DNA of 64,000 bases from an uncultured bacterium (lineage in GTDB: Bacteria > Patescibacteriota > Minisyncoccia > Phycocordibacterales > Phycocordibacteraceae). Both the position numbers and the translations under genes were made by a program. Under the pieces are notes generated by a model, which saw only the letters and a program-made list of their open reading frames with translations, searched no databases and had not been told where the DNA came from. Where the stretch lies: contig CAWKPH010000001.1 of the NCBI GenBank assembly GCA_963851445.1, forward strand, positions 617,363-681,362, read 5' to 3'. Below are positions 9,569-25,456 of this stretch, piece by piece (the first letter of the stretch is position 1; each line of letters starts with the position of its first letter).

Positions 9569-9869
9569 ATCGCAAGCCCTTTCTGGTTGATGTTGAAAGC
9601 GCTCGAATGCAGTTGTATGCACTCGATGCACTCGAAGCAAACAGGAAGCGGCCTCGCGAATGACCACGACCGCTACCCATCTCAAAGCAAAGAGCATAGA
9701 AGATCTCCAGCAAATAATCCAACGAGATTATGGCGTTGTCCTCAATGACGAAGAAGCCGAAAAGTTCGGTCTCTCTTTGCTAAAAATCACTCGCCTCGCA
9801 ATGACTGCTTTTAACCGGACAGAGGATAAGCACGCCATAACAATTACAAACACAAGCTAACCTTTGTTT

Positions 9870-9921
9870 TCGAGTCGAGCTCCAGTGAAAAGACTTTGCG
9901 GTCGGCACTGGAGCTCGACTC
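9870..9921. promoter_or_regulatory. perfect 17-bp inverted repeat (cgagtcgagctccagtg / cactggagctcgactcg) immediately upstream of prim-pol gene
   Basis: The inverted repeat is seen directly in the sequence. It shares an 11-mer (agtcgagctcc) with the sequence flanking the tRNA att core at 24816-24826. Confidence 0.5.
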
Positions 9922-9938
9922 GGGAACCCGACCGCAAC

Positions 9939-12269: not shown

Positions 12270-12703
12270 TGCCTATGACGAGAATCAACCGCACAGGCAT
12301 CAGCAAGCATATGCCATACACCATAAAAGAACTCACCGGTTTGTTGCATAAAAGCGAAAAGACGCTCGAACGGTGGATGGGCGCTGGCTTGCCAATCGTC
12401 CCTGGCGGTAAAAATCCAATCTTGATACTGGGCGACGACCTCATTGAGTTTCTCAAAAACAAAGATGCGAAACATAAGGTGAAGTTGAAACGAAATGAAT
12501 TTCTTTGCATGAAATGCAAACTACCGCGTCTCGCAAAAAGGGGCACACTCAAGATTCTGAGTGATAGAAAAGAAGGCAACTGCTGTGTCTGTAACAGCAA
12601 AATGAGCAAGCTAATTAAATCTCGTAGGAACCTACTATCTGATACCGCTGTCCCTGATATAAATGTCGGTTTTGACGACCCTCCGCCATCGCCCCTGGTA
12701 TGA
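12269..12703 (+). CDS. small zinc-ribbon/HTH-like protein
   Basis: 144 aa with CMKC…CCVCNSK Cys pairs. Its start overlaps the prim-pol stop (TAATG). Confidence 0.4.
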   Translation: MPMTRINRTGISKHMPYTIKELTGLLHKSEKTLERWMGAGLPIVPGGKNPILILGDDLIEFLKNKDAKHKVKLKRNEFLCMKCKLPRLAKRGTLKILSDRKEGNCCVCNSKMSKLIKSRRNLLSDTAVPDINVGFDDPPPSPLV

Positions 12704-13854
12704 CAAAAACCACCTATCAAAATGAGCAATTAAAGAGAGCCTTCTTCACCTACCTACGAGGTGCGAAGGGCTTTGAGAAAAGCTCTATTCACTCATATGC
12801 AGAAGCAGTCTGGCAATGGCAACTCTTTTCGGACGGCGATGACTTTGCCAGTTTTGATGAGTCAAAGGCATTAGCGTTTAAGGAATGGCTCTCCACTCGA
12901 CCGACCAAGACCAAGGCGGGGCGGCTCAGTCTTGCCACCCAATATAACTATCTCCGTCGCGTGAAGCGCTTTTTCTCATGGCTTTCGGATCGTCCTGGCT
13001 TCAAGAATAAGATACTGAAGGGTGATGTTGAGTTCCTACGCCTATCCAACAAGGACGCTCTTATAGCCCGATCTGGCTCGACCAGAGCCAATCCAACTCT
13101 TGAAGAAGCAAGAAAGCTTATCGAGGGCATTGAAATAAAAAATGAGGTAGACCAGCGGGATAGGGCACTCATCAGCTTTGCCGCAATCACTGGCTGCCGC
13201 ATCTCCGCCCTCATTTCCCTTAGGATGAAGAATTTTGATAAGGAAAAACGCTTGGTGTCCCAAAATCCCGGCGATGGTGTTCATACCAAGGATTCCAAGA
13301 AAATACTCACGCCATTGTATCCAATAGGATGGGACGCGCCTGAGCAGTACTTCATGGAGTGGTTCGAGCATCGTGAGGCAACGGGCTCTCAAGCAGACGA
13401 CCCTATATTCCCAGCAACGGTCGGTGAGATTGGTCGCGTTAAACCAGCTCACGGTAGCGGATTCGTCGGAAATGTTTTTTGGAGCAACCCATCGGGAGCC
13501 CGTAAGGTATTCCAGAAGAGGTGTATGGAAGCGGGCGTGCCGTATTTTCATCCTCACTCGTTTCGACACTTGGCCGTAAGCGTCATGGCAAAAATACCCC
13601 TTACCGAAGAACAGAAGCGTGCCTTTAGCATCACGCTCGGTCATGCCAATGTCACCACCACGTTCGGCTCCTATTGCAGCCGAAACATGAGCAATGAGGA
13701 AGCAGTCCAAATCGTCGAACAGATTAAGGCTTTTGAAGCAAAAGAGGCAGTAAGTGGTCCCACTTTCACGAATGAAGACCGTGCTACTTTAATGGGACTT
13801 TTAGAGAAAATGAAGGCTGCGGAAATCCCCACAACCCCCGATTTGGTCGGTTGA
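12700..13854 (+). CDS. tyrosine site-specific recombinase/integrase (phage integrase family)
   Basis: Catalytic-domain pattern: …TGCRISALISLRMKNF… HPHSFRHLAVSVM… LGHANVTTTFGSY (R…HxxR…Y). Confidence 0.8.
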   Translation: MTKTTYQNEQLKRAFFTYLRGAKGFEKSSIHSYAEAVWQWQLFSDGDDFASFDESKALAFKEWLSTRPTKTKAGRLSLATQYNYLRRVKRFFSWLSDRPGFKNKILKGDVEFLRLSNKDALIARSGSTRANPTLEEARKLIEGIEIKNEVDQRDRALISFAAITGCRISALISLRMKNFDKEKRLVSQNPGDGVHTKDSKKILTPLYPIGWDAPEQYFMEWFEHREATGSQADDPIFPATVGEIGRVKPAHGSGFVGNVFWSNPSGARKVFQKRCMEAGVPYFHPHSFRHLAVSVMAKIPLTEEQKRAFSITLGHANVTTTFGSYCSRNMSNEEAVQIVEQIKAFEAKEAVSGPTFTNEDRATLMGLLEKMKAAEIPTTPDLVG

Positions 13855-13886
13855 CATCTATGTACAACTAGGAGTATGCTTTACGT

Positions 13887-14072
13887 ATGAAATTCTTAAC
13901 GAGAGAAGAAGTAGCCAAGTACCTGCGCGTGCATCCCCGCACCATCGAACGCTGGCTCAAAAGCGGGACCTTGAAGGGATATAAGCTAGGAACCGGAAAG
14001 ACTTCTTTGTGGCGAATATCGGAAGATGAGTTAAAGAAGTTTTTGGAGAAGAATAAAGCTAAACCAATATGA
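13887..14072 (+). CDS. small HTH DNA-binding protein (excisionase/MerR-like)
   Basis: 61 aa (LTREEVAKYLRVHPRTIERWLKSGTLKGYKLG), a typical HTH_17/Xis-like fold. Overlaps the recombinase start. Confidence 0.55.
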   Translation: MKFLTREEVAKYLRVHPRTIERWLKSGTLKGYKLGTGKTSLWRISEDELKKFLEKNKAKPI

Positions 14073-15787
14073 ACCAACCAACAACCATTCGTTATGACGT
14101 GTATCTGCGAAGGTCCAGCAGCGATGCAGAGGATAAGCAGGTTCAATCAATTCCCGACCAGCGACGGGAGCTGAACGAGTACATCGCAAGAAACAACCTC
14201 ACCATCGTCGGAGAGTTCGAGGAATCGCAAAGTGCTCACCATCCCGGCAGACCAGTGTTCAACGAGGTCATGGGGCGTATTGAGAAAGGAGTCTCGAACG
14301 GGTTGCTCGTGTGGCACGCCAATCGTACCTCAAGAAATCCTGTAGACAGCGGCGCTATTATCAACCTTATCGACGAAGGCAAGCTCTTTCATGTCAGAAC
14401 GCCTTCCCACATATACGGCAACACCTCTACAGAAAAGATGATGCTCGCGCTTGAGTGTATGATCGCCAAAAAGGACTCGGACGATAAGAGTGACGCGGTG
14501 AAGCGAGGGCTCCGTGGCCGCTACAAAAAAGGACTCCCGAACGGTGTTGCTCCCATCGGCTTCATTAACGATGTTTCCGTTGAGAAGGGCAATCGTGGCT
14601 GGCTCGTGGATGAGGAGAAGTTCCCGCTCATTGCTCAAGTCTTGGAACTCTTTCACACGGGCAAATATTCGACCAGAGCGTTGCTTCGAATCGCTAACGA
14701 TGAGATGGGACTGCGTACGCCGCAGCACAAGAAACAAGGTGGAAAGAAACTTGTGTATTCGCACTTTATGGAGACCGTGCTCCAGAATCCAGTGTATGCA
14801 GGATTCTTCTTTGCAGATACTGATACGGAAAAAGGTAAAAAGTTTGAACTCGATGCGAGAGTGCCGCGAGCTATCAGCGAGGAGACGTACTGGGAGAATC
14901 AGAAGATACTCGGAAACAAAGGACGAGCGCGACCTTCGAAGAACAAAACATCCTTCGCCTATGTTGGACCGACGACATGCGGCGGGTGCGATGGCGTGGT
15001 GACGGCCGAGCATAAGTACCAGGTCATTTGCGACTGTAAGCTCAAGTTCTATTATATGAATAAAACAGAGTGCCCGGGATGCGGCGTCGCGATAGATAAA
15101 ATGGTAAATCCGCTCTATCTCCACTACGTTTACTACCACTGCACCCGTACCAAAGATCCGACGTGCCGCGAGGGCAGCGTCCAGGAGCTCTACATCGACG
15201 ACACACTCGCTTCGTACTTCAAGGAGAACTTCAAAATCTCACAGTCCTTGCACGACTGGTGCATAGAGAACCTTGAGACCCTCGATATTAAGGATGCAAA
15301 GAATGATGTCGAGAAAACAGCATCGCTGGAGACCACGCTTTCCAAGAAGCAGCATGAGCAGAGGGAACTCGTGCTAATGAAGGCACGCGGACTTCTTGCT
15401 GACGATGCTGAGTTCCTTGAGTTGAAAGGCATCCTGAAGGCAGAAATTGACGTGCTAGAGCAAGCTTTGGCCAAGAATGGAAAACCTATAGACCCAGCGA
15501 AAATCAAGAAGGCTCGCAGAGCGTTTGACCTCTCCCTTGGTATAGAAGAAATCTTCAAAAGTGGTACCCCAGAGGAGAAAAAAGACACCCTACTGGAAAT
15601 CGGATCGAACCTAACTATAAAAGCCAAAACACTCACTGTTTACAACAGCGGAGTGTATAAAAAGATTATAGATGGCCTACTTACCGCCAAGGCGATAAAT
15701 CCTTCGTTCGAACCTGAAAATTGTGAGGCAGATGCTGAACGAAATCCTGTTTTTGCCTCTGTGTTTCCTACTCTGCTCCGCGGGTAG
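14069..15787 (+). CDS. large serine recombinase (resolvase N-domain + recombinase domain + zinc ribbon)
   Basis: Resolvase catalytic N-terminus (YDVYLRRSSSDAED…), then a recombinase domain and Cys-rich zinc ribbon (CGGCDG…CDC…CPGCG), then a coiled-coil tail. The stop codon lies inside the tRNA-derived repeat. Confidence 0.8.
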   Translation: MNQPTTIRYDVYLRRSSSDAEDKQVQSIPDQRRELNEYIARNNLTIVGEFEESQSAHHPGRPVFNEVMGRIEKGVSNGLLVWHANRTSRNPVDSGAIINLIDEGKLFHVRTPSHIYGNTSTEKMMLALECMIAKKDSDDKSDAVKRGLRGRYKKGLPNGVAPIGFINDVSVEKGNRGWLVDEEKFPLIAQVLELFHTGKYSTRALLRIANDEMGLRTPQHKKQGGKKLVYSHFMETVLQNPVYAGFFFADTDTEKGKKFELDARVPRAISEETYWENQKILGNKGRARPSKNKTSFAYVGPTTCGGCDGVVTAEHKYQVICDCKLKFYYMNKTECPGCGVAIDKMVNPLYLHYVYYHCTRTKDPTCREGSVQELYIDDTLASYFKENFKISQSLHDWCIENLETLDIKDAKNDVEKTASLETTLSKKQHEQRELVLMKARGLLADDAEFLELKGILKAEIDVLEQALAKNGKPIDPAKIKKARRAFDLSLGIEEIFKSGTPEEKKDTLLEIGSNLTIKAKTLTVYNSGVYKKIIDGLLTAKAINPSFEPENCEADAERNPVFASVFPTLLRG

Positions 15788-15808
15788 GATTCGAACCTAC
15801 GAACCTAC
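15775..15808 (-). repeat. att-like direct repeat: partial copy of tRNA 3' end (T-arm+acceptor)
   Basis: gctccgcgggtaggattcgaacctacgaacc matches gctccgcgggtagggatcgaacctacgacc at 24822-24851 (about 27/30). It contains the T-loop GGTTCGAATCC on the minus strand. Confidence 0.65.
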
Positions 15809-15937
15809 ATTTTCTGGGAATGGAAATCCATTTAGGAAGTACGGCAAATATCAAGTAAGTGCGAGAGATTATTAGCAAAAGTGCAATTACCACTGATACC
15901 CACACATCATCAAAACTAACCAACTCTTATCACTTCT

Positions 15938-15960
15938 AGGGCAACCCATGGGCAACCATG
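15938..15960. repeat. GGGCAACC tandem repeat (candidate integrase arm-type site), left arm
   Basis: gggcaacccatgggcaaccatgg, about 155 bp from the att core. A near-identical copy (gggcaacccgtgggcaaccactgg) lies at 24688-24712, about 130 bp from the other core. Confidence 0.45.
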
Positions 15961-16107
15961 GACATTACCAACAAAGAGCAGTACATCAGAGTGATAAAAG
16001 TTGAATCTTCAAACGCTGCTTCGCAGTGGTTCTTACTATTGCTGCTGGCTCAAACAATGCTCCCGCCCGGAAGCACGTTCTGTCCCAAGGAGCTATACTT
16101 AGACGTA

Positions 16108-16325
16108 TGAAAATGCACGAACTATTTTCCAAGACAGAGGTAGATGGACGTTTTGAAGCACAAATTGACATGGTTCTTGTGAACGGAAAAGAAATAAAAA
16201 AGGGGCAAAAAGTAGACCTCGATAGCTTAGGTCTTGATTCTTATTTTGACGACGAAGCTTCTGTAGGAGGCCAAATTGCAAATGGAGTGTTTTGTTGGAG
16301 TGGTACCGTACGCAGCGATGTTTGA
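16108..16325 (+). CDS. small hypothetical protein
   Basis: 72-aa ORF from an internal Met of the 16026..16325 ORF. No motif was recognised. Confidence 0.2.
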
Positions 16326-16330
16326 CCGTT

Positions 16331-17482
16331 CTATAATGGCTTTCTTACATCCGGACTTGGAACGTACCCGTAGTGCCTGAGAGCACCATTCAAAGTATTA
16401 AAGAACTCTGGATCAGGCGCAGGGTACTTTGGATGAGGAATAATCACACCCATACTCTCACCTTGCTCTGCCTCGTTCTCGCTCTGATAGTGATAAGAGA
16501 AGTTGGTAAAGAAAGCTGCATTTAAAGGATAGTCACCTGGGTCAAGTCCTTTTAGCTTTTTGGTTACCATCGTCTTTGCTTCTTGAACCCAAGGCTTTTC
16601 ATCCAATGCAACATTTGGAGTAGCAGGTAAGTTTACGTCTATGAAAATTGCGAAAGGAACGTCTTTCGGATTTTGAGTGAGGGCTTCGTTGAAAGTTCTT
16701 CTCATTCGTGCCGAGAGCTCTTCCACGGGGCTTCCTTCTTCGTGTATCACTCCAGCTCTGTGCTTGCTCTTAACCTCCACAGCGAGCGTAAAACCGGTTT
16801 CTCTGTGTTTAGCAACAAACTCACAATGCTTATTCTTACTATTTACATCTGTCCATTCGATGTCACAACCCATCCTTGAGAAAATAGCTGCTATTGCGAT
16901 TTCGTAACGAGCACCTTGATACTCTCGACGTGATTTCAAACGCTGAAGTAATGTCTCTGGCAATATGTTCTTCTGAACGAGACTGCTTACATCAAAAGCG
17001 AGCAAAAGTAATGATTTAACATACCCGTCCGGCATTGCGTTTAAGGGTCCATCTAAAGGTATGTTTCCTATACGTGCTCTCTCACGCAGTATCCACTCAC
17101 CAGTTTTTGCTAGGCATAAAGCGATGTAGTGCCGCTCATTGAGAGGAAGTTTCATTTGTTCTTCCCACCACTCGACTCCCAAGGTGCGTTTCAGCACATC
17201 CACTAAGAACTCATGGAAGGTCTGATTTACATCGTTAGAAGTGTAGATTGCACTTCCAAAAGCCCATACTTTCTTGCCATTAAAGATTACTGGCTCGACG
17301 TAGTGATCAAAGAGACCTGCTTGATGTCGAAGATCTCGTTCCGCTTGTTGTTTCTGGAAAAACTCGATAACTTCTTTGGGTATGGTAGGGGCAGGAGCCG
17401 TATCTTTATTCCAGCAACAATTTTTATACTTTATTCCGCTCCCGCAGTGACACGGAAGATTTCTGTCAGATCCTTTACCCAT
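16331..17482 (-). CDS. SEC-C motif-containing hypothetical protein
   Basis: N-terminal CHCGSGIKYKNCC (SEC-C metal-binding motif). The remaining ~350 aa have no recognisable catalytic motif. Confidence 0.55.
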   Translation of the reverse strand: MGKGSDRNLPCHCGSGIKYKNCCWNKDTAPAPTIPKEVIEFFQKQQAERDLRHQAGLFDHYVEPVIFNGKKVWAFGSAIYTSNDVNQTFHEFLVDVLKRTLGVEWWEEQMKLPLNERHYIALCLAKTGEWILRERARIGNIPLDGPLNAMPDGYVKSLLLLAFDVSSLVQKNILPETLLQRLKSRREYQGARYEIAIAAIFSRMGCDIEWTDVNSKNKHCEFVAKHRETGFTLAVEVKSKHRAGVIHEEGSPVEELSARMRRTFNEALTQNPKDVPFAIFIDVNLPATPNVALDEKPWVQEAKTMVTKKLKGLDPGDYPLNAAFFTNFSYHYQSENEAEQGESMGVIIPHPKYPAPDPEFFNTLNGALRHYGYVPSPDVRKPL

Positions 17483-17662
17483 ACCTACAATTTACTCCTT
17501 TTAACTCTTGATGCTAGGACGGGGAATGGCCTTCACTCCTATTATCTATATGAGAGTGTAGGGCAATCATTTTGTCTGAGAAGATTGTGACAGAACTTGA
17601 CAAAACACCTAAATATGTGTAATATCGTATACGGCTACAAGTCCCTTTACAAAAGGTTCAAC

Positions 17663-17751
17663 CAATCGAGACGAGCTTTTTACGGCTTACCTTCAGTGCG
17701 CAAGTTCTGGACGATTTTTACAACTAGGCCGTAAAAAGCTCGTCTCGATGT
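17663..17751. promoter_or_regulatory. long inverted repeat (21-bp stems: tcgagacgagctttttacggc / gccgtaaaaagctcgtctcga) in divergent intergenic region upstream of DGR target gene
   Basis: Perfect stems separated by about 38 nt. Located between the divergent genes 16331..17482(-) and 17761..18525(+). Confidence 0.45.
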
Positions 17752-17760
17752 GAGACAGAC

Positions 17761-18525
17761 GTGTCCGACGTATTCGGGCTATGGAGACCTTCGATGTCCA
17801 ACATCGACACTCTCGACAAGGCTACCAGTATTCTCGGCACCTGCATCAGGCTGGTGCGCTTGCTCGCTACGGGCGGCGCCACTATCGACCAGCTGCAAGC
17901 GCCCATCAGCATCAAGAGCAAGCGCGAAAACCTGCTGGCCTACCTCGCCGCCGACTGTCCCAAGTTCACGATCGAAGGCGGTGTCGCCATCGCTAAGGCG
18001 CCCAAAGCGCCGAAGCTTCCCGGCAGCGATCGCGTGAAAATCGTCAATAAGACGACCATCAAGGTCAACTGCGGTGCCGATTCCAAGCTCCCGTTCAACG
18101 GAGCCGTGATCGATACCAACTCGGGCGACCGCTGGGTCACGGTCCAAAAGCGCGGCGACGATCTCTATGTCGACGACGTGAAGGTCGACCTGCACCTCGA
18201 CGAAGGCCAGCAAAACGGCAAGGTGTTGCAAGGCCACAAGCTGCGCACCGCCCTCGCTAAGATGACGTCGGTTCATCCGAACGTCATCGACGCCGCCATC
18301 GAACATGGCCTGATGCCGGAAAGCTGGAAAGTGGATGAAAACGGCAAGACCCGCTTCATCTTCTCCTTCGCCGTCATCTTCCGCGACCCGACGCGCGACG
18401 ACCTGTGCGTCCGGTTCTGGTACTGGCGCGAGGGTCGCTGGCAGTCGAACTACCGCTGGCTCTACGATGGCTGGTACGGCATCAGCCCCACGGCCGTGCT
18501 CGGCAAGGTTGAACCTAAGGCCTAA
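17761..18525 (+). CDS. DGR target protein (putative C-type-lectin-fold variable protein) with C-terminal variable repeat
   Basis: The C-terminal ~40 codons (…DPTRDDLCVRFWYWREGRWQSNYRWLYDGWYGISPTAVLG) are homologous to the downstream TR. The region is markedly GC-rich. The real start may be the Met at 17797. Confidence 0.7.
   Translation: MSDVFGLWRPSMSNIDTLDKATSILGTCIRLVRLLATGGATIDQLQAPISIKSKRENLLAYLAADCPKFTIEGGVAIAKAPKAPKLPGSDRVKIVNKTTIKVNCGADSKLPFNGAVIDTNSGDRWVTVQKRGDDLYVDDVKVDLHLDEGQQNGKVLQGHKLRTALAKMTSVHPNVIDAAIEHGLMPESWKVDENGKTRFIFSFAVIFRDPTRDDLCVRFWYWREGRWQSNYRWLYDGWYGISPTAVLGKVEPKA
18379..18506 (+). repeat. DGR variable repeat (VR)
   Basis: 128 bp aligned with the TR at an offset of +521. 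About 16 mismatches, every one at a position where the TR has A. Confidence 0.8.
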
Positions 18526-18579
18526 GCTCCTCGGGTCTCTCAGACTCTTAGGACTTAGTTCTGCATTTTGGGCTCCGCA

Positions 18580-18625
18580 TTTCGTCATCGCGACGGGTGC
18601 GGAGCTTTTCTTTTGCACCACAAGG
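18580..18625 (+). terminator. GC-rich hairpin + T-run downstream of VR/target gene (terminator and/or DGR homing-associated stem-loop)
   Basis: gggctccgca…tgcggagc stem followed by ttttcttttg. It lies about 75 nt after the VR end. Confidence 0.45.
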
Positions 18626-18899
18626 GCATTTCTATTTCTAAATCGCTTCGCTCAAAACAAAATAATGTCATATAGTAGAAACGGTAGTAGGCGAGTACGG
18701 AAGCGATTACGGTTGCTTCCTGCCGAATCCAGTATCCATAGACCGAGAGCGTTTCTGATTACGATTTCAAACGGAGAGGTGTATGTAGAAACTTCAAAAA
18801 TGAAGATACTTGGTGCGAAGCGCTAGGGCATTGCGATGCCGAATACGATTCAACCCGGAGAGTACTCGATGGGTGGTGGCACAGATGGCGCTCCGCACA

Positions 18900-19027
18900 T
18901 TCCGCAACCCGACGAACGACAACCTGTACGTCCGGTACTGGTACTGGAACGAGGGTCGCTGGCAGTCGAACTACAACTGGCTCAACAATGACTGGAACGG
19001 CAACAACCCCACGGCCGTGCTCGGCAA
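18900..19027 (+). repeat. DGR template repeat (TR), non-coding
   Basis: Adenine-rich template (AAC codons in the VR frame). It differs from the VR only at TR adenines. The 3' 21 bp (ccccacggccgtgctcggcaa) are identical in VR and TR. Confidence 0.8.
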
Positions 19028-19033
19028 CTCTCT

Positions 19034-19423
19034 TCATTTCTCTCCCGTACTAACGGGAGAGTTTTGTTTCGTGAGTTGTCCGTTCCATCCGCCGAGCATT
19101 TTTCCAACGTCTTCGAGCGGGACAGACAAGATTGCGTATTTTTTCGTATCAAATGATTTCGTTTCCCAAAGCACCATGAGCAGCACTTTCAGAGTGTCGA
19201 GCTTGCGTATCGCAAGTCGCACGTACGGTTGCTTTTCATTTCGCGCGAGGAAACCAGCACAGGCTATCGCTTCTATGATTTCAATAAAGAGAGTGTCCAC
19301 GCGTTCGCCCGAACTATACCGATGTATCTTCGGAATCGTCTGGTAAAATCCACACCATAGGACATATGTCGATTTCACACGCTCTAACACTGGTAAAAGG
19401 TTCGGGGGGGGGGGTACTTTCAT
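19034..19423 (-). CDS. avd: Avd-like accessory variability determinant (four-helix-bundle protein), encoded on the opposite strand
   Basis: 129 aa. The pattern LERVKSTYVLWCGFYQTIPKIHRYS…LDTLKVLLMVLWE…ILSVPLEDVGKMLGGW resembles bAvd/PF05635 four-helix-bundle proteins. The N-terminal poly-Pro is encoded by a poly-G/C homopolymer. Confidence 0.65.
   Translation of the reverse strand: MKVPPPPNLLPVLERVKSTYVLWCGFYQTIPKIHRYSSGERVDTLFIEIIEAIACAGFLARNEKQPYVRLAIRKLDTLKVLLMVLWETKSFDTKKYAILSVPLEDVGKMLGGWNGQLTKQNSPVSTGEK
19403..19414. repeat. homopolymeric G tract (~10-12 nt) inside the avd start region / upstream of RT
   Basis: tcgggggggggggtac, seen directly. The exact length is ambiguous in my reading (the ORF coordinates imply 11-12 G). 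Confidence 0.6.
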
Positions 19424-19428
19424 AGGTT

Positions 19429-20127
19429 ATGGATTGTATTCAGTATACGGATACATACGAGAATATCATCTCCGTGGAGAATCTCCTTGAAGCGTGGCGG
19501 GAGTTTAAAAGAGGCAAAAAGCATCGCGCTGATGTGCAGCATTTCGAGAGGAACCTGTTATCCCACGTACTGAATCTGCATGAAGACCTGTCCGTTATGC
19601 GATACGTGCATGACGGATACGAAGCATTCCGCATCACCGATCCGAAGCCGCGAGACATACACAAGGCAAGCGTACGGGACAGGCTCCTCCATCATGCAAT
19701 TTATCGAAAGCTCTACCCATTCTTTGACCGCGTGTTCATAAGCGACTCGTATTCATGCAGGAAGGATAAGGGCTCGCATAAGGCGCTCGCGCGCTTCCGT
19801 GCTTATGCCTATAAAGCCTCATCAAACCACATGCGTACCGTATGGATTCTGAAATGTGACATACGAAAGTTCTTCGCTTCGATAGACCATGGAGTGCTAG
19901 TGAATATTCTGAAGCGGTATATCCCCGACGAACGCATCATGTGGCTGTTCGGACAGGTGATCATGAGCTTCAACACTGAGCGGCAGGGAACAGGGCTTCC
20001 GCTAGGCAACCTCACCTCGCAGCTCTTGGTGAATGTGTACATGAACGATTTCGACCAGTTCGCAAAACATAACCGGTATGCTGTTTTTAGTCTTCCTCAT
20101 CACTGTGATATGGCGAGGAATGAATAA
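19429..20127 (+). CDS. DGR-type reverse transcriptase, apparently truncated (fingers/palm motifs 1-4 present; YxDD not found)
   Basis: The RT motifs are present: ILKCDIRKFFASIDH and …GLPLGNLTSQLLVNVYMNDFDQF. The ORF stops about 20 aa later (…KHNRYAVFSLPHHCDMARNE*) without a YADD box, and no continuing frame was found. Confidence 0.65.
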   Translation: MDCIQYTDTYENIISVENLLEAWREFKRGKKHRADVQHFERNLLSHVLNLHEDLSVMRYVHDGYEAFRITDPKPRDIHKASVRDRLLHHAIYRKLYPFFDRVFISDSYSCRKDKGSHKALARFRAYAYKASSNHMRTVWILKCDIRKFFASIDHGVLVNILKRYIPDERIMWLFGQVIMSFNTERQGTGLPLGNLTSQLLVNVYMNDFDQFAKHNRYAVFSLPHHCDMARNE

Positions 20128-20413
20128 CCTAGAAGCACTCTCACCCCTGAATGAGGATGAACTCAAGGGTCCAGAATGGAGGAATCCCAAGTCATTCAGC
20201 AAGGCCAGATGGACCATACCGATACTATGGATCGGGACGCTGGGCATGTTGATACTTGCCTGGGATGGAATTGGAAATGACTTTTCATCGCAACCTGTGA
20301 TTACATGGTCCATTCTCATACTTTTCTTCGGCACTATGTGGTATCGGGGGGCGCATGAATTGCCACCTTTCACCCTTTCAAGCCTATAAAGGCCATTTGT
20401 TATAATAGAAAAT

Positions 20414-21217
20414 ATGCCACTTCCCCTCGATCTCGTCCTCGTCCGCCACGGCCAGTCTGAGGGCAATGCCGCGAAGCGCATGTCTGAGCAGGGAGACAAT
20501 ACTGCATACGACCTCTTGGCTAATCGCCACACGCGAAGCTATCGCCTTTCGGACCTCGGAAGGGACCAGGCCATGAAAGCCGGATTCTGGATCCAGAGGG
20601 AGTTCATTAGGCTTGATAAGAAGCCAATGTTCGACCGCTACATCACTTCTGAATACAACCGCGCGATGGAGACAGCGGCCCTCCTCGATATCCCGAACGC
20701 TGAATGGTTCCGGAACTTCTATTTAACAGAACGCTCATGGGGCGACCTCGAAGACTGTCCTGAAGACGAGCGCCAAGAGAAGTTTGGTGCTGCTCTCAAG
20801 ATGCGGGTTATCGAGCCTTTCTTTTGGCGACCTCCCAACGGCGAATCCTTCGCTGAGCTCTGCTTGCGCCTTGATCGCGTCCTCGACACCCTCCATCGGG
20901 AAAACAGCGATCAACGGGTTATCATCGTCTGTCATGGCGAAGTGATGCGCGCTTTCCGTGTTCTGCTTGAGCGCATGCCGCAGCAGAAGTTTAAGGAACA
21001 ATACCTTTCCAAGGAGAAGGACGATGCCATCTTCAACTGCGAGATCTTTCACTACACACGCAAGGATCCGAAGACGGGCGAAATTGCGGACCATGCCAAC
21101 TGGATGCGGCGTGTACGCCCTAATGAGGCACCTGTATGGGATACGGGATGGCAGACGATCAAACGTCCGCGTTATTCCAATGAGGAATTGCTGGATATCG
21201 CAAGAAAGATAGGATAG
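20414..21217 (+). CDS. histidine phosphatase superfamily (phosphoglycerate-mutase-like) protein
   Basis: N-terminal LVLVRHGQSEGN signature (the RHG motif). 267 aa. Confidence 0.7.
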   Translation: MPLPLDLVLVRHGQSEGNAAKRMSEQGDNTAYDLLANRHTRSYRLSDLGRDQAMKAGFWIQREFIRLDKKPMFDRYITSEYNRAMETAALLDIPNAEWFRNFYLTERSWGDLEDCPEDERQEKFGAALKMRVIEPFFWRPPNGESFAELCLRLDRVLDTLHRENSDQRVIIVCHGEVMRAFRVLLERMPQQKFKEQYLSKEKDDAIFNCEIFHYTRKDPKTGEIADHANWMRRVRPNEAPVWDTGWQTIKRPRYSNEELLDIARKIG

Positions 21218-21240
21218 GATTCCCAGACTAATCCGATGCC

Positions 21241-22035
21241 ATGAATGCAAGGCCTAATCCTGAGATACATATTCCCGAGTTTAAAATACTTGAGAACATT
21301 AATGAAAATGAGGTTAGCAACGCTCTTAATGAGCTTATTGAACTAGGAGGAAACATCACTAACTACAGTCAGAAGTACATTGCAGATGCACATGTCAGCA
21401 TTAATCCATATTTCTACGACGACCTCAGACAATTTTTCATATCTTGGCGAGGTTGCGCAAGGCGAATCCTGAGAAATGCAGGAGAGGCCTTTATGGACGA
21501 AAGTGAGGTCATGGATGAATCAGACAGCATTCCTTTTTTCTCAGTGATAGATGAGAAGCGAGATTCTTACTCAGTAGATACTCAAGAATTGATCTCTGGT
21601 ATACAGCGCGAAACCTCTCGACGACTGGAAACACTACATAAAGCAAGGGGAAAAATCATTGAACAGGAAAATGAGAAAGTTAAGACTAATACACCTATAG
21701 CTTACAATCATTTAACGAGTGAGTTATATGTACGTGGTATTCCCGTACTTATTAATGCGAGAATGACATTAGGAAGTTCAGGGAATAAAGAAACAGAGAT
21801 GCTGGCGATTCTTTTCAACCAGCCAACGAAATCAATGCCTTGTGATGATTTCTGGATGGAGTGGCAGTCTTTTGAAAATAAAGAGGCATATGAGCAAAAA
21901 GCAAAGAAAAACTGGACATCGATATATCAAGCAGCAAATAGGATTAATAAGAAAGTTAGCTATCTCACAAGCAGGAAAAAGCTTATAGATGTGACAAAAT
22001 ATCAGGTTTCGATTCATGTAGAATACCAATCTTAG
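21241..22035 (+). CDS. hypothetical protein
   Basis: 264-aa ORF with no recognisable motif. Located within element B. Confidence 0.45.
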   Translation: MNARPNPEIHIPEFKILENINENEVSNALNELIELGGNITNYSQKYIADAHVSINPYFYDDLRQFFISWRGCARRILRNAGEAFMDESEVMDESDSIPFFSVIDEKRDSYSVDTQELISGIQRETSRRLETLHKARGKIIEQENEKVKTNTPIAYNHLTSELYVRGIPVLINARMTLGSSGNKETEMLAILFNQPTKSMPCDDFWMEWQSFENKEAYEQKAKKNWTSIYQAANRINKKVSYLTSRKKLIDVTKYQVSIHVEYQS

Positions 22036-22078
22036 TTAGCTAACTCTTCGTAACTAGTTTTCTATACGATGGCTCACA

Positions 22079-23374
22079 ATGAGTCAGGAGAAACCATATT
22101 CGCCAAATATCTCTATCGACCCTCTTATTTCGATAGATCCTCGCACTGTTAACCCCTTCAAGCTACCTGATGATTTAGGGTGGGTAGAGGAGTTAGGAAA
22201 GAGTCGGGAGGTTGTACAAGAGATCTCTCATGACGATAAAAAATCACAAGCAGTTCTCACGCGTCTTTCAGATATAACCTCAAGGGCGGTTAGCTGGCTT
22301 TGGCATGAGCGTATCGCGCTTGGGAAGCTCACTATTATCTCTGGGGATCCTGGCCTCGGAAAGAGCTTGTTGACCGCGACAATGGCGGCGATTGTTTCAA
22401 AGGGCGGCTCGTGGCCGCTTGAAGAAACCCCATGTCCAATTGGAAGCGTCGTATTACTTTCTGCTGAAGATGATCCAGCAGACACTATCAAGCCTCGTTT
22501 GGAAGCTGTAAGCGCTGATTGCGAACGCATTCACATACTGCAAGCCATTAAGGACATTGATTCAGCAGGAAATCCCACAGAACGCATGTTTTCACTTAAG
22601 CGTGATATTGCTCTGCTCGAAGACTTACTCCTTTCCTTGCCAGATTGTCGCCTCATCGTTATTGATCCAATCTCAGCGTATCTAGAAGGTGCAGATAGTC
22701 ATAAGAACAGCGACGTTCGAGGACTGCTAGCTCCACTTGCCAAGTTCGCGTCAAATCATAATGTTGCAGTCGTTTTAGTTCAACACTTAAACAAAAACAG
22801 CGGAGGAAGCGCTATGTATCGCTCGATGGGTTCTGTGGCGTTCGTTGCTGCCGTACGAGCTGCATACGTCGTTATTAAAGATCAGAATGACCCCGAGCGA
22901 CGGCTCGTGATGCCGGTCAAGAATAATCTCGCAACAGACAATACTGGTTTGGCTTACTCGGTTCATAACGCAGATAATGGTGCACCAGTCATCGCATGGG
23001 AGAACGAAGCGATAACCATAACAGCAGATGAGGCACTTACTCCGTTAGATTCTAATGTGGAGAAAACAGACACTGATTGGGCCATAGATTTTTTGGAAGG
23101 TGAGCTTTCTGACGGTCCTGTACCAGTTGCTGAAATCAACAAAAGTGCAAAGCAAGTTGGTGTGTCACCAAAATGTCTAAGACGTGCAGCAGAAAAGCTC
23201 GGAATCAAGAGGAAGAAAGATGGCTTCAATAAAGGCTGGGTATGGTCGTTGCCTAGGCACGAAGATGCCCAAGAATACGAAGATGCCCACCTTCAAAACG
23301 AGGGCATCTTGGGAGCAGAAGGGCATCTTCGAAAGGAGATAGGAGATTTAATCGTAAAGGAGGGTTTGGTATGA
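22079..23374 (+). CDS. RepA-like RecA-fold ATPase (AAA_25-type) replication/primase-helicase loader protein of mobile element
   Basis: Walker A motif ISGDPGLGKSLLTATMAA, Walker-B-like RLIVIDPISAYL, then a C-terminal winged-helix-like region. Typical of ICE/plasmid RepA proteins. Confidence 0.65.
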   Translation: MSQEKPYSPNISIDPLISIDPRTVNPFKLPDDLGWVEELGKSREVVQEISHDDKKSQAVLTRLSDITSRAVSWLWHERIALGKLTIISGDPGLGKSLLTATMAAIVSKGGSWPLEETPCPIGSVVLLSAEDDPADTIKPRLEAVSADCERIHILQAIKDIDSAGNPTERMFSLKRDIALLEDLLLSLPDCRLIVIDPISAYLEGADSHKNSDVRGLLAPLAKFASNHNVAVVLVQHLNKNSGGSAMYRSMGSVAFVAAVRAAYVVIKDQNDPERRLVMPVKNNLATDNTGLAYSVHNADNGAPVIAWENEAITITADEALTPLDSNVEKTDTDWAIDFLEGELSDGPVPVAEINKSAKQVGVSPKCLRRAAEKLGIKRKKDGFNKGWVWSLPRHEDAQEYEDAHLQNEGILGAEGHLRKEIGDLIVKEGLV

Positions 23375-23616
23375 TTAAGGTACCCGTCGGTGCTGCCGAT
23401 GATGTACTGCACTTTGAAAACAATTTCGAAGGTTTCTCTCTCACGCTGTTGACCATACCTGAAGTAGCGAAGTTTCTTAGAATCTCATCTACTGGAGTGA
23501 GACGCTTACAAGAACGGCGAATTATTCCCTTCATCAAGGTTGGTGGCAGTGTGCGCTTTCTCAAAGAAGACATTCTTTCTTATTTGCGAAGGCAGCGAGT
23601 GGAATCCATCGAGTAA
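23371..23616 (+). CDS. excisionase/HTH DNA-binding protein
   Basis: 81 aa (LTIPEVAKFLRISSTGVRRLQERRIIPFIKVGGSVRF), a helix-turn-helix of the Xis/MerR type. Sits directly upstream of the integrase. Confidence 0.55.
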   Translation: MIKVPVGAADDVLHFENNFEGFSLTLLTIPEVAKFLRISSTGVRRLQERRIIPFIKVGGSVRFLKEDILSYLRRQRVESIE

Positions 23617-23626
23617 TAGATGATAT

Positions 23627-24769
23627 ATGGCAGTACGAATGATTAAAAAATCGTGGTGGGTGGACATACGCTTCAATCACAGACGATATCGAAAGCGAAG
23701 TCCTGAAAACTCAAAGGCAGGCGCTCAGGCCTATGAAGCTGTCTTGCGACAGAAACTGGCACGAGGAGAGGAAATAGAGAAAACCCAGCTCGTCTTATCG
23801 AAAGAAGAATCGTTTGAGACCTTTGCTTGGAAGTGGTATGACGAATACGTTATACCAAACAACAAGTACTCGACGCAGCAAATGAAGAAGTACATTCTGG
23901 CTGGCTCCCTGATTCCTTTCTTCGGAAAGATACCTGTCCGAAAGATTACCTCGCACCATATAGATCAATTCAAGGCACATTGCCTTAAAAAGGATTCGAG
24001 CCATAAAACAGTGAATAATCATCTTGGGATATTGAGTAAGCTCCTCATGACTGCATATGAATGGATGGAACTTGAATCTGTACCTCCTAAAATAAAACCA
24101 CTCAAATGCCTACCGCCTAGGACAGACTATCTCTCGGCAGAGGAATGTCAGCTGCTCCTATCACACTCGCAAGGTGTGATTCATGAGATGATTCTCACCG
24201 CGTTGCGGACAGGAATGCGACAAGGTGAACTGAAAGGTCTTCAGTGGACTTCAATTGAGTGGGAAAATCGCAATGTGGTGGTGCGACATTCCCAAGATGA
24301 TTATCGCAAGGTACTTGGCACGCCAAAAAGCAACCGAGAACGCAATATCCCTCTAGATATTGATGTATACGAAACGTTCCTGAAGAAAAAAGCTACAGTT
24401 GGGTACGTATTCCTAACTGCTAAAGGAAAACTCTTCACCCATGACCGTATGACAGTCGCAATAGCTCGAGTATGCAAAAAGGTTGGACTACGAAAAATTG
24501 GCTGGCACACGTTACGCCACACCTTCGCAACTCAGCTCGCCACGAAAGGCGTTCCGTTAACAACAATTCAATCACTTCTAGGCCACTCAAGCATCTCTAC
24601 CACCATGAGATACGCGCATGTTGCGCCTTCAACAATGCGGTCAGCAATAGATCTCTTGAGCCCGAGAACGGCCATCCCGATGGATTTTGGGCAACCCGTG
24701 GGCAACCACTGGCTTGCGTCGCTCGACAAAGAAGCGGAAGAGAAAACCCTTAAGGCTAAAAACCCATGA
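23627..24769 (+). CDS. int: tyrosine integrase (phage integrase family) adjacent to tRNA att site
   Basis: …LTALRTGMRQGELKGLQW… GWHTLRHTFATQLATKG… LGHSSISTTMRYAHV (R…HxxR…Y catalytic pattern). Ends 55 bp from the tRNA 3' end. Confidence 0.8.
   Translation: MAVRMIKKSWWVDIRFNHRRYRKRSPENSKAGAQAYEAVLRQKLARGEEIEKTQLVLSKEESFETFAWKWYDEYVIPNNKYSTQQMKKYILAGSLIPFFGKIPVRKITSHHIDQFKAHCLKKDSSHKTVNNHLGILSKLLMTAYEWMELESVPPKIKPLKCLPPRTDYLSAEECQLLLSHSQGVIHEMILTALRTGMRQGELKGLQWTSIEWENRNVVVRHSQDDYRKVLGTPKSNRERNIPLDIDVYETFLKKKATVGYVFLTAKGKLFTHDRMTVAIARVCKKVGLRKIGWHTLRHTFATQLATKGVPLTTIQSLLGHSSISTTMRYAHVAPSTMRSAIDLLSPRTAIPMDFGQPVGNHWLASLDKEAEEKTLKAKNP
24688..24712. repeat. GGGCAACC tandem repeat (candidate arm-type site), right arm, inside int 3' end
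   Basis: gggcaacccgtgggcaaccactgg. Matches 15938-15960 at 22/24 positions. Confidence 0.45.
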
Positions 24770-24862
24770 GTTTACTTGGTGAAAACGACAAACACCACGT
24801 AATGTGGTGTTTGTCAAGTCGAGCTCCGCGGGTAGGGATCGAACCTACGACCAACTCGTTAC

Positions 24863-25415
24863 ATCGCTCCTCTCGTTACCGTGAGGGATGGACTATATCA
24901 TCATCGGTTCTCGATGCGAGGCGCTTCCCAAATCGCCATTGCGATTAAGTACTCCCTTACGGGATAGTCTCTACACCTTCCGAGATTTTGATCTCGGCTT
25001 GGCTCGGGATCGCCCATCCTTCGATATTCGACGGATTAGGGTTTCCCCGAATTCACCTCGTTTTTCATCCAGAATTCCTTCTGAAAGCTGCGTGATGCCA
25101 TCGTGTACTTCGGCGTGACAATTTGCGCAAAGTAATACGCATTTTTCCAATTCAGCCAGCATCTTTCCCCACGACCTTGTAAGGCCCCTCACCGAAAGAC
25201 CGAAATCTTTCTTTGAAGGATCTAGGTGATGGAATACCATTGCTCGTCTAGATCGGTCATATCCGCATAAAATGCACTTGCCTCCACCGTATTCGAGAGC
25301 CATATCGCGAAGTTTTTTACGCCTTGCAGAAACAGCTTTCTTCAAATATTCGGCACGATCAGCATAGGTTCGCCTTTCTGGCATATACACATGAATATAC
25401 CATTGGGCTTGTCCA
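24863..25415 (-). other. ~550-nt intervening sequence in tRNA anticodon loop (putative self-splicing group I-type intron) carrying an HNH homing-endonuclease ORF
   Basis: The inferred exon/intron junctions obey group I rules (5' exon ends in U, insert ends in G). The intron class was not verified structurally. Confidence 0.45.
24971..25390 (-). CDS. HNH endonuclease (homing-endonuclease-like) inside tRNA intron
   Basis: CILCGYDRS…FHHLDPSKKDF…LLCANCHAEVH (Cys pairs plus HNH catalytic histidines). A basic C-terminal tail. Confidence 0.7.
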   Translation of the reverse strand: MYMPERRTYADRAEYLKKAVSARRKKLRDMALEYGGGKCILCGYDRSRRAMVFHHLDPSKKDFGLSVRGLTRSWGKMLAELEKCVLLCANCHAEVHDGITQLSEGILDEKRGEFGETLIRRISKDGRSRAKPRSKSRKV

Positions 25416-25456
25416 CAGCGAGCCGCTCTACCACTGAGCTACCGCGGAATACTATT

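What the first reader, a model, noticed from the sequence alone, without database searches (positions are those of the whole stretch)
24824..25448. tRNA (probably Asn-GUU) split by ~550-nt intervening sequence encoding an HNH endonuclease
The two halves of a canonical tRNA lie 553 nt apart. The 5' half has the acceptor, D-arm and anticodon stem plus CTGT. The 3' half has TAA, the anticodon stem, the T-arm and the acceptor. Joined at CTGT|TAA they give the loop CUGUUAA (anticodon GUU); U1-A72 and G73 match tRNA-Asn. The inferred junctions follow group I rules: the 5' exon ends in U and the insert ends in G. The insert carries a 139-aa HNH endonuclease ORF. The same tRNA serves as the att site for two mobile elements.
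Basis: partly seen in the sequence, partly recalled or inferred. Interest (0 to 1): 0.75.

Follow-up and report, generated by a model that had tools for sequence, protein, structure and literature searches.

The report
Self-splicing intron inside tRNA-Asn gene
The asparagine tRNA gene of this candidate-phyla-radiation bacterium is split by a 553-base self-splicing group I intron that carries its own HNH homing-endonuclease gene; the reading is correct, but this class of intron was described and shown to splice in 2025-26, so this is a further example.

Summary
On the minus strand, 25448-25415 and 24861-24824 are the two halves of tRNA-Asn(GUU), separated by 553 nt inserted between anticodon-loop positions 35 and 36.

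- **Intron:** the insert scores 65.5 bits against Rfam RF00028 (threshold 50). It has U-1, omega-G and a complete P1-P9 core.
- **Conservation of the fold:** across 40 homologues, 92% of cells are paired and 44 of 62 pairs show compensatory changes.
- **Endonuclease gene:** the 137/139-aa HNH ORF lies in the P1 loop. Its codons T-Q-L spell the internal guide sequence GCAGC, and its tail reads through P2-P6.
- **Possible own promoter:** a conserved TGGTATAyT box sits 8-12 nt upstream of the ATG. This is an inference.
- **Intron-less alleles:** 35 metagenome contigs carry an uninterrupted tRNA-Asn gene 70/72 identical to the predicted ligated exons, some in the same gene neighbourhood.
- **Host:** a Patescibacteria bacterium, probably Paceibacteria-like.

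Williams (2020) listed this class as 'Asn.4Ug'. Nakagawa et al. (mSystems 2026) described it, showed self-splicing in vitro for ORF-less members, and reported four HNH-bearing copies. This one is a new member of a known kind.

Side findings: two mobile islands sit in tandem at the tRNA's 3' end, one carrying a diversity-generating retroelement. Free-standing relatives of the HNH gene lie next to tRNA-Asn genes in other bacteria and in phage tRNA arrays.

The parts
25415..25448 (-). tRNA-Asn 5' exon (positions 1-35; ends ...GCUCG CUGU; U35 = U-1 of the intron)
   Evidence: ARAGORN on joined halves and with -i
24862..25414 (-). group I intron, 553 nt, inserted between anticodon-loop positions 35 and 36; omega-G at 24862
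   Evidence: (RF00028 65.5 bits over 25146-24869)
24824..24861 (-). tRNA-Asn 3' exon (U36 A37 A38, anticodon stem, variable loop, T arm, acceptor, discriminator G73; no CCA encoded)
24971..25390 (-). HNH homing-endonuclease ORF: 139 aa from GTG 25390, 137 aa from ATG 25384, stop TAG 24973-24971. About residues 1-100 are the HNH protein; the last ~40 aa are a read-through of ribozyme helices P2-P6.
25394..25402 (-). TGGTATATT, an extended -10-like box 9 nt upstream of the ATG. Proposed own promoter of the endonuclease gene, giving a near-leaderless mRNA (inference).
   Evidence: present in 29 of 32 intron-borne homologues; also upstream of free-standing copies
25087..25091 (-). internal guide sequence GCAGC. 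It pairs with exon GCUGU (25419-25415) to form P1, with the U35.G wobble at the splice site. It is also read as codons aCG-CAG-Cuu (T-Q-L) of the ORF. The P1 loop is therefore 25414-25092 (323 nt) and holds the ORF.
   Evidence: ACGCAGCUU conserved in all aligned homologues, and placed 5-24 nt after the 5' splice site in ORF-less introns; published ORF-less introns
25069..25084 (-). P2 hairpin UCAGAA-GGAA-UUCUGG
   Evidence: (6 of 6 pairs covary)
24917..25060 (-). P3 (25060-25054 with 24923-24917). It encloses P4 (25050-25045 / 25009-25004), P5/P5a (25041-25013), P6/P6a (25003-24975), the P7 5' strand (24969-24965), P7.1 (24964-24953) and P7.2 (24946-24931).
24869..24916 (-). P8 (24916-24902), J8/7, P7 3' strand UAGUC (24895-24891), P9 (24886-24869)
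15775..15804 (-). displaced copy of the tRNA-Asn 3' end (T arm and acceptor). Its T loop, GGTTCGAATCC, is the version found in uninterrupted alleles elsewhere. It marks the far att border of the integrase island.
23627..24769 (+). tyrosine integrase of the island inserted at the tRNA 3' end (context, not part of the intron)

Best explanation
This is the tRNA-Asn(GUU) gene of a Patescibacteria bacterium, interrupted between anticodon-loop nucleotides U35 and U36 by a mobile group I intron.

**Splicing (inferred from structure and from experiments on homologues).** The gene is transcribed as a roughly 625-nt precursor. The ribozyme folds so that the exon end, G31-C32-U33-G34-U35, pairs with the internal guide GCAGC located 323 nt downstream. 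That makes P1 a helix with a very long loop and a U.G wobble at the splice site. Free guanosine attacks after U35. The terminal G (24862) then docks in the P7 pocket and the exons are ligated, giving the loop CUGUUAA and a normal tRNA-Asn.

**Mobility (inferred).** The P1 loop carries a 137-aa HNH (zinc-finger beta-beta-alpha-Me) endonuclease gene. It probably has its own extended -10 promoter and an almost leaderless mRNA. The protein most likely cuts uninterrupted tRNA-Asn genes near the anticodon-loop sequence. Repair from the intron-bearing copy then spreads the intron and ORF together, which is homing.

**Overlap of gene and ribozyme.** The last conserved codons of the ORF are also the guide sequence, and the ORF tail runs through P2-P6. 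Translation of the ORF and folding of the ribozyme on a single RNA molecule should therefore exclude each other.

**Shown here:** exon and intron boundaries, the group I fold and its covariation, intact HNH motifs, existence of intron-less alleles, and host lineage.

**Inferred:** splicing of this copy, endonuclease activity and its target, and the promoter.
For: - **tRNA:** ARAGORN calls tRNA-Asn(GTT) on the joined halves, and tRNA-Asn i(35,553) on the genomic stretch.
- **Rfam:** RF00028 scores 65.5 bits against a gathering score of 50, E 2e-14.
- **Helices:** P2-P9 were assigned by hand and mapped to coordinates. The MFE fold reproduces them independently, z = -3.5.
- **Covariation:** on a MAFFT alignment of 40 homologous ribozymes, 92.3% of cells are paired, 44 of 62 pairs change on both sides, and 0 of 500 shuffles reach the observed covariation score. 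Slid controls pair only 35-46%.
- **Guide sequence:** ACGCAGCUU is conserved in every aligned homologue. In ORF-less introns it lies just after the 5' splice site, so the ORF is an insertion into L1.
- **HNH family:** 1758 clusters at E<=1e-3. All 29 invariant residues are present in the window protein, including C39, C42, H54, H55, C88, N90, C91, H92 and H96. A profile of the family hits the HNH (En) domain of a group II maturase, 6me0.
- **Location of homologues:** at least 521 loci in species-representative genomes. In about 70 of the 80 kept, the ORF sits inside a split tRNA-Asn.
- **Intron-less alleles:** 85 metagenome stretches contain the uninterrupted gene with the exact ligated junction. 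Thirty-five of them are 70/72 identical to the predicted tRNA. L123 and L151 are collinear with the window on the Grx-fmt-MurA-MreB side.
- **Published homologues:** the window ribozyme is 67% identical to the GCA_016700035.1 intron, which self-splices precisely at 35/36 in vitro (PMC13011429).
- **Host:** DnaB is 80-84% identical to Paceibacteria/Patescibacteria proteins.
Against: - No RNA data exist for this organism. In vitro splicing has been shown only for ORF-less members (234-nt introns), not for a copy with a 323-nt P1 loop.
- P1 has only 4-5 base pairs, and I found no convincing P10.
- The window protein alone falls below Pfam's HNH gathering score (17 vs 21.4 bits).
- The ORF's last ~40 codons overlap the catalytic core. 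This could impair either function.
- Only 64 kb are visible, so a second, uninterrupted tRNA-Asn gene elsewhere in the genome cannot be excluded.
- The promoter call rests on motif conservation alone.
Confidence: 0.9

Rival explanations
1. The intron is a decayed relic. The ribozyme or the endonuclease no longer works, the split gene is a pseudogene, and a second intact tRNA-Asn gene elsewhere in the genome supplies the cell.
For: Only 64 kb of a ~688-kb contig are visible. P1 is short and its loop very long. The ORF tail runs into the ribozyme core. The 3' end of the gene has been swapped by an integrating island.
Against: Every core helix is intact in this copy, and the invariant core nucleotides match the family. 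All invariant HNH residues are present. [quoted passage not shown] No other tRNA-Asn is in the window.
Confidence: 0.06
2. The gene is tRNA-Thr(UGU) with the intron at 33/34. This is the reading ARAGORN and tFind give for many homologues.
For: ARAGORN calls about 40 of the 80 homologous loci tRNA-Thr(tgt) i(33). The window sequence also allows CU|gu...ga|UGUAA.
Against: That junction would end the intron in A rather than G and would break the register of the CUGU/GCAG P1. U1-A72 and G73 fit Asn (own knowledge of AsnRS identity elements). Uninterrupted genes 70/72 identical carry CUGUUAA. Sequencing of spliced products from homologues showed 35/36 (PMC13011429).
Confidence: 0.01
3. The ribozyme splices, but the HNH protein no longer acts as a homing enzyme. 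It might serve as a maturase-like splicing helper or have another host function, or be expressed only as a fusion with the core read-through tail.
For: The ORF overlaps the guide sequence and P2-P6. Close homologues keep a similar long tail. No activity data exist.
Against: Most family members stop soon after the guide sequence, at 104-112 aa, so the tail is dispensable. Tail 'conservation' follows the conserved RNA: GEFGET corresponds to GGUGAAUUCGGGGAAACC. Free-standing relatives sit beside tRNA-Asn genes in bacteria and phages, which is the pattern expected of homing enzymes. The intron is patchily present among syntenic relatives.
Confidence: 0.03

Closest known systems
Group I introns at position 35/36 of tRNA-Asn(GUU) in Patescibacteria (Nakagawa et al., mSystems 2026, PMC13011429; listed as 'Asn.4Ug' by Williams 2020, bioRxiv 10.1101/2020.01.27.920355)
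   Same: Same host phylum, tRNA, insertion site, U-1/omega-G and guide sequence GCAGC. The core is the same and includes P7.1/P7.2 hairpins (IA-type). The window ribozyme is 67-74% identical to published ORF-less members, and the HNH protein is 54% identical to the GCA_016699425.1 intron ORF.
   Different: This sequence is not in their Table S3. Their splicing assays used ORF-less introns. They did not describe the ORF's position in L1, its overlap with the guide sequence, the conserved -10 box, or free-standing relatives. They counted only 4 HNH-bearing copies in complete genomes, whereas at least 521 loci turn up in species-representative genomes.
Classical bacterial tRNA group I introns: cyanobacterial tRNA-Leu(UAA) 34/35, tRNA-fMet 33/34, Azoarcus tRNA-Ile and Agrobacterium tRNA-Arg 36/37
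   Same: Self-splicing group I intron in the anticodon loop, with P1 formed from anticodon-loop nucleotides.
   Different: Those are mostly subgroup IC3 and about 200-250 nt, usually without an ORF. This one is IA-like, sits at 35/36, and carries an HNH gene (PMC13011429).
Phage HNH-intron pairs and free-standing homing endonucleases (I-HmuI/I-TevIII type intron ORFs; T4 mobE 'trans/collaborative homing', PMC2790892, PMC3984707; T4 SegB in the tRNA gene cluster, PMC2330249)
   Same: An HNH enzyme is associated with a group I intron. Relatives occur both inside the intron and free-standing beside the target gene. Phage relatives sit in tRNA arrays.
   Different: The target gene here is a bacterial tRNA rather than a phage protein gene. 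SegB belongs to the GIY-YIG family, not HNH. No activity has been measured for this family.

Membership tests
Group I intron (Rfam RF00028) | Covariance-model score at or above the curated gathering score | tested here: met
   65.5 bits against 50, E 2.2e-14, model positions 1-253. The model's first hairpin is misplaced inside the ORF; the true P1/P2 were assigned.
Group I intron (Rfam RF00028) | U at -1 forming a U.G wobble with an internal guide sequence (P1), and G at the intron's 3' end | tested here: met
   Exon GCUGU (25419-25415) pairs with GCAGC (25091-25087). Omega-G is at 24862. The guide is conserved in all aligned homologues, but P1 itself shows no covariation because both strands are invariant.
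Group I intron (Rfam RF00028) | Conserved core P3-P4-P6 and P7-P3-P8 with the P3/P7 pseudoknot, supported by covariation | tested here: met
   92.3% of cells paired and 44 of 62 pairs compensatory, against 35-46% in slid controls. P7 and P6 are invariant; P2, P3, P4, P5, P6a, P7.1, P7.2, P8 and P9 covary.
Group I intron (Rfam RF00028) | Guanosine-dependent self-splicing | not testable with these tools
   Shown in vitro for an ORF-less homologue that is 67% identical (PMC13011429).
Patescibacteria tRNA-Asn 35/36 intron class (Asn.4Ug; subgroup IA) | Insertion between positions 35 and 36 of tRNA-Asn(GUU) | tested here: met
   ARAGORN i(35,553). Uninterrupted alleles carry exactly the ligated sequence.
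Patescibacteria tRNA-Asn 35/36 intron class (Asn.4Ug; subgroup IA) | Host belongs to Patescibacteria | tested here: met
   DnaB is 80-84% identical to Paceibacteria/Parcubacteria/Patescibacteria proteins. HNH relatives come almost entirely from Patescibacteria MAGs.
Patescibacteria tRNA-Asn 35/36 intron class (Asn.4Ug; subgroup IA) | Subgroup IA architecture (extra P7.1/P7.2 between P7 and P3') | tested here: inconclusive
   Two covarying hairpins lie between P7 and P3' (24964-24953 and 24946-24931), as expected for IA. The subgroup-specific covariance models used in the paper were not available here.
HNH endonuclease (Pfam PF01844) | Pfam score at or above the gathering threshold | tested here: not met
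   The window protein scores 17.0 bits against 21.4. Many homologues at 60-78% identity do carry a precomputed PF01844 hit.
HNH endonuclease (Pfam PF01844) | Catalytic and zinc motif: CxxC ... HH ... N ... CxxC-H ... H | tested here: met
   C39, C42, H54, H55, C88, N90, C91, H92 and H96 are invariant in 33 sequences, the window's included. The family profile aligns to the HNH domain of the group II maturase 6me0, E 2.5e-4.
Homing endonuclease (functional class) | Cleaves the intron-less allele and drives gene conversion | not testable with these tools
   Indirect evidence only: presence/absence polymorphism among syntenic relatives, and free-standing relatives beside tRNA-Asn genes.
tRNA-Asn | Cloverleaf with anticodon GUU after exon ligation, with U1-A72 and G73 | tested here: met
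   ARAGORN on the joined halves. 70/72 identity to 35 uninterrupted tRNA-Asn genes.

The most novel reading that the evidence does not exclude
This HNH lineage may be a homing endonuclease specific to tRNA-Asn genes, caught at every stage of its association with the intron:

- free-standing beside tRNA-Asn in phage tRNA arrays;
- free-standing beside a bacterial tRNA-Asn that carries an ORF-less intron;
- lodged in the intron's P1 loop with its own promoter, as in this window.

In the third form, its last conserved codons (T-Q-L) have become the ribozyme's guide sequence. Translation and splicing of one RNA molecule would then exclude each other. That would make the family a natural series for studying how a selfish nuclease and a ribozyme fuse into one mobile element. 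It would also suggest that phages carry the nuclease between hosts.
Probability: 0.3. Interest if true: 0.5.

Novelty: new member of a known kind. Interest (0 to 1): 0.3.

Why it matters
**For annotation.** Default tRNA finders miss this gene, so the genome would appear to lack tRNA-Asn and would score as less complete. Nakagawa et al. already made this point.

**For biology.** The window adds one well-resolved, ORF-bearing example. It shows four things:
- where the endonuclease gene sits in the ribozyme (the P1 loop);
- that the gene overlaps the guide sequence;
- that HNH-bearing copies are far more common in draft genomes than the four reported from complete genomes;
- that the same tRNA gene is also a hot spot for integrating islands.

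None of this overturns current understanding.

Tried and rejected
- **Rfam's P1/P2 placement.** The model put its first hairpin at 25146-25120, inside the HNH coding region. I rejected this in favour of GCAGC at 25091 plus the P2 hairpin, because both are conserved or covary in all homologues and in ORF-less introns.
- **Covariation in P1.** I looked for the guide's fifth base to covary with tRNA position 31 (G, A or C in different hosts). It does not; the guide stays GCAGC. P1 is therefore 4 conserved pairs, plus a fifth only when position 31 is G, as it is here.
- **P10.** I found no convincing pairing between the 3' exon and the bases 5' of the guide.
- **Other host tRNAs.** ARAGORN's tRNA-Thr, tRNA-His and tRNA-Ser calls among the homologues would have meant several host tRNAs. 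Re-reading the junctions shows they are all tRNA-Asn 35/36 with omega-G.
- **Third att repeat.** None was found for the second island, even allowing 3 mismatches.
- **Source genome.** An exact look-up of the 137-aa protein found no record. Cluster look-up gave no accession or name. The sequence is not in Table S3 of PMC13011429.
- **Promoter and terminator scan around the gene.** One weak sigma-70-like site was found upstream of the tRNA (25512-25485), which is no more than chance.

Full report

Yes. Read on the minus strand, 25448-25415 is UCCGCGG-UA-GCUC-AGUGGUA-GAGC-G-GCUCG-CUGU. That is the acceptor 5' strand, the D arm, the anticodon-stem 5' strand and the first four loop bases. 24861-24824 is UAA-CGAGU-UGGUC-GUAGG-UUCGAUC-CCUAC-CCGCGGA-G, the rest of the tRNA. 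Exactly 553 nt (25414-24862) lie between them.

ARAGORN calls the joined halves a tRNA-Asn(GTT). With introns allowed, it calls the genomic stretch tRNA-Asn with a 553-nt intron at position 35. Default ARAGORN and the Rfam tRNA model find only a tRNA-Glu in the window, so standard annotation would miss this gene.

**2. What is the insert?**

Rfam's Intron_gpI model matches 25146-24869 on the minus strand at 65.5 bits (gathering score 50, E 2e-14). I assigned the helices by comparison with homologues and with the ORF-less introns printed in Table S3 of Nakagawa et al..

- **P1:** exon GCUGU (25419-25415) pairs with the internal guide GCAGC (25091-25087), with U35.G at the splice site.
- **Other helices:** P2 at 25084-25069. 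P3 at 25060-25054 with 24923-24917. P4 at 25050-25045 with 25009-25004. P5/P5a, P6/P6a. P7 at 24969-24965 with 24895-24891. Two hairpins between P7 and P3' (P7.1 and P7.2, the IA hallmark). P8, P9. Omega-G at 24862.
- **Independent folding:** a plain thermodynamic fold of 25091-24862 recovers P2, P3, P4, P5, P6a, P7.1, P7.2, P8 and P9, with z = -3.5 against shuffles.
- **Covariation:** on a MAFFT alignment of 40 homologous ribozymes (A2), the structure pairs 92.3% of cells. Forty-four of 62 pairs show changes on both sides, and 0 of 500 shuffles reach the covariation score. Sliding the 3' partners by 1-3 columns drops pairing to 35-46%.

The fold is therefore under selection across the family, and every helix is intact in the window's copy.

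**3. The ORF and where it sits**

The ORF (25390 or 25384 to 24971) has 1758 relatives at E<=1e-3. Nearly all come from Patescibacteria. The window protein alone is below Pfam's HNH threshold (17 vs 21.4 bits).

The family alignment nevertheless shows invariant C39, C42, H54, H55, C88, N90, C91, H92 and H96. Its profile matches the HNH domain of a group II intron maturase, 6me0.

In ORF-less introns the guide GCAGC lies 5-24 nt after the 5' splice site. In ORF-bearing ones it lies about 320 nt downstream, always as ...ACGCAGCUU... followed directly by P2. The ORF is therefore an insertion into the loop of P1.

Its conserved C-terminal 'ITQL(P)' is the guide sequence and the P2 5' strand read as codons. 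Free-standing relatives, which have no ribozyme to serve, lack this motif.

In the window the frame stays open through P2-P6 and stops at the UAG in J6/7. Most relatives stop about 35 codons earlier. The apparent conservation of the tail ('GEFGET', 'GQSRAKP') tracks the conserved RNA.

A box TGGTATAyT lies 8-12 nt upstream of the ATG in 29 of 32 intron-borne copies, and also upstream of the free-standing copies. In the window it is at 25402-25394. I read it as an extended -10 promoter giving a nearly leaderless mRNA. This is inference only.

**4. Relatives and intron-less alleles**

Of the 80 kept, ARAGORN places the ORF inside a split tRNA in most, labelled Asn, Thr, His or Ser. Re-reading the junctions shows they are all tRNA-Asn with CUGU|...G|UAA. 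The Thr(UGU) 33/34 label is the two-base mis-registration that Nakagawa et al. describe.

A metagenome scan for the predicted ligated junction returned 85 uninterrupted tRNA-Asn genes. Thirty-five are 70/72 identical to the window's spliced product. L123 and L151 are collinear with the window across glutaredoxin, fmt, def, MurA and MreB. The intron is thus present or absent among relatives with the same gene neighbourhood, as expected of a mobile intron.

**5. Host**

The window's DnaB is 80-84% identical to proteins named Paceibacteria, Parcubacteria or Patescibacteria, and lies on the same 687,765-bp contig as the HNH protein.

**6. What is known**

- Williams (2020, bioRxiv 10.1101/2020.01.27.920355) mapped new tRNA group I intron classes, including Asn.4Ug.
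- Nakagawa et al. [quoted passage not shown]
- They showed precise self-splicing in vitro for two ORF-less examples.
- They classified the introns as IA.
- They noted four tRNA-Asn introns with HNH genes.

The window's ribozyme is 67% identical to their spliced intron and 74% identical to a Paceibacteria one. Its HNH protein is 54% identical to one of their intron ORFs. The window sequence itself is not in their Table S3.

This is therefore a new member of a known kind. Details added here:
- the L1 position of the ORF;
- the overlap with the guide sequence;
- the putative promoter;
- the abundance of ORF-bearing copies in draft genomes.

**7. The att-site clause**

A 28-30-nt copy of the tRNA's 3' end lies at 15775-15804. 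Between it and the gene are a tyrosine integrase (23627-24769), an AAA_25 protein, a reverse transcriptase and others.

The distal copy has the T loop GGTTCGAATCC found in uninterrupted alleles elsewhere, whereas the functional gene has GGTTCGATCCC. The island therefore appears to have replaced the gene's last ~28 nt with its own version, which is the usual outcome of integration into a tRNA 3' end.

To the left of the distal copy lie a serine recombinase whose ORF ends inside the copy, a second tyrosine integrase, an HTH protein and a Prim-Pol. A homologous serine recombinase also sits beside an uninterrupted tRNA-Asn in L099.

Two tandem elements are therefore likely. The outer border of the second was not found.

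**8. Verdict**

The feature is real and well supported, and it most likely works as a self-splicing, homing-competent group I intron. Because the class is already published with experimental support, I score interest at 0.3.

Noticed in passing
window 17761-20127 (VR 18379-18506, TR 18900-19027, RT ORF 19429-20127): The integrase island carries a diversity-generating retroelement. Two 128-nt repeats are 88% identical, and all 16 mismatches are an A in the second copy (template) against G, T or C in the first, which forms the 3' end of ORF 17761-18525. A reverse transcriptase (RVT_1) gene follows.
   Followed up: partly
window 9864-15804 and 15805-24822: Two mobile elements lie in tandem at the tRNA-Asn 3' end. 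The inner island has a tyrosine integrase and the DGR. The outer element has Prim-Pol, HTH_17, a second tyrosine integrase, and a serine recombinase whose ORF ends inside the displaced tRNA 3' fragment. The displaced fragment, not the live gene, carries the T-loop sequence seen in uninterrupted alleles.
   Followed up: partly
L027, L049, L077, L065 (same strand, ~55-60 nt upstream of the tRNA); L034, L036, L012, L051 (divergent, ~30-115 nt from the tRNA 5' end): In 8 of 80 related genome loci the HNH homologue (about 60-70% identical) is free-standing, right next to a tRNA-Asn whose 35/36 intron is short (175-331 nt) and has no ORF. These copies lack the ITQL motif that encodes the guide sequence in intron-borne copies. 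The arrangement resembles 'collaborative homing', or an intermediate in the capture of a nuclease gene by an intron.
   Followed up: partly
viral loci L167-L246 (e.g. L167, L171, L173, L176, L180, L186): 490 viral contigs encode more distant relatives of the HNH protein (up to 60% identity). Of the 78 loci analysed, 73 have tRNA genes within the 1.5-kb flanks, and 34 have tRNA-Asn(GTT) as the immediate neighbour, although Asn makes up only 55 of the 433 tRNAs in those loci. One viral contig (L168) has the ORF inside an intron-split tRNA-Asn.
   Followed up: partly
L164 (metagenome contig), HNH-like ORF 2508-2260 beside tRNA-Asn starting at about 2688: A more distant HNH relative (48% identity over 83 aa) lies divergently next to an uninterrupted tRNA-Asn gene 70/72 identical to the window's. 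If this enzyme family targets that gene, the neighbouring copy must somehow be immune.
   Followed up: no
window 41839-43299 (+): A class II aminoacyl-tRNA synthetase of the Asp/Lys/Asn type (tRNA-synt_2 plus an OB anticodon-binding domain) lies 16 kb from the split tRNA-Asn gene. Which of the three amino acids it serves was not determined.
   Followed up: no
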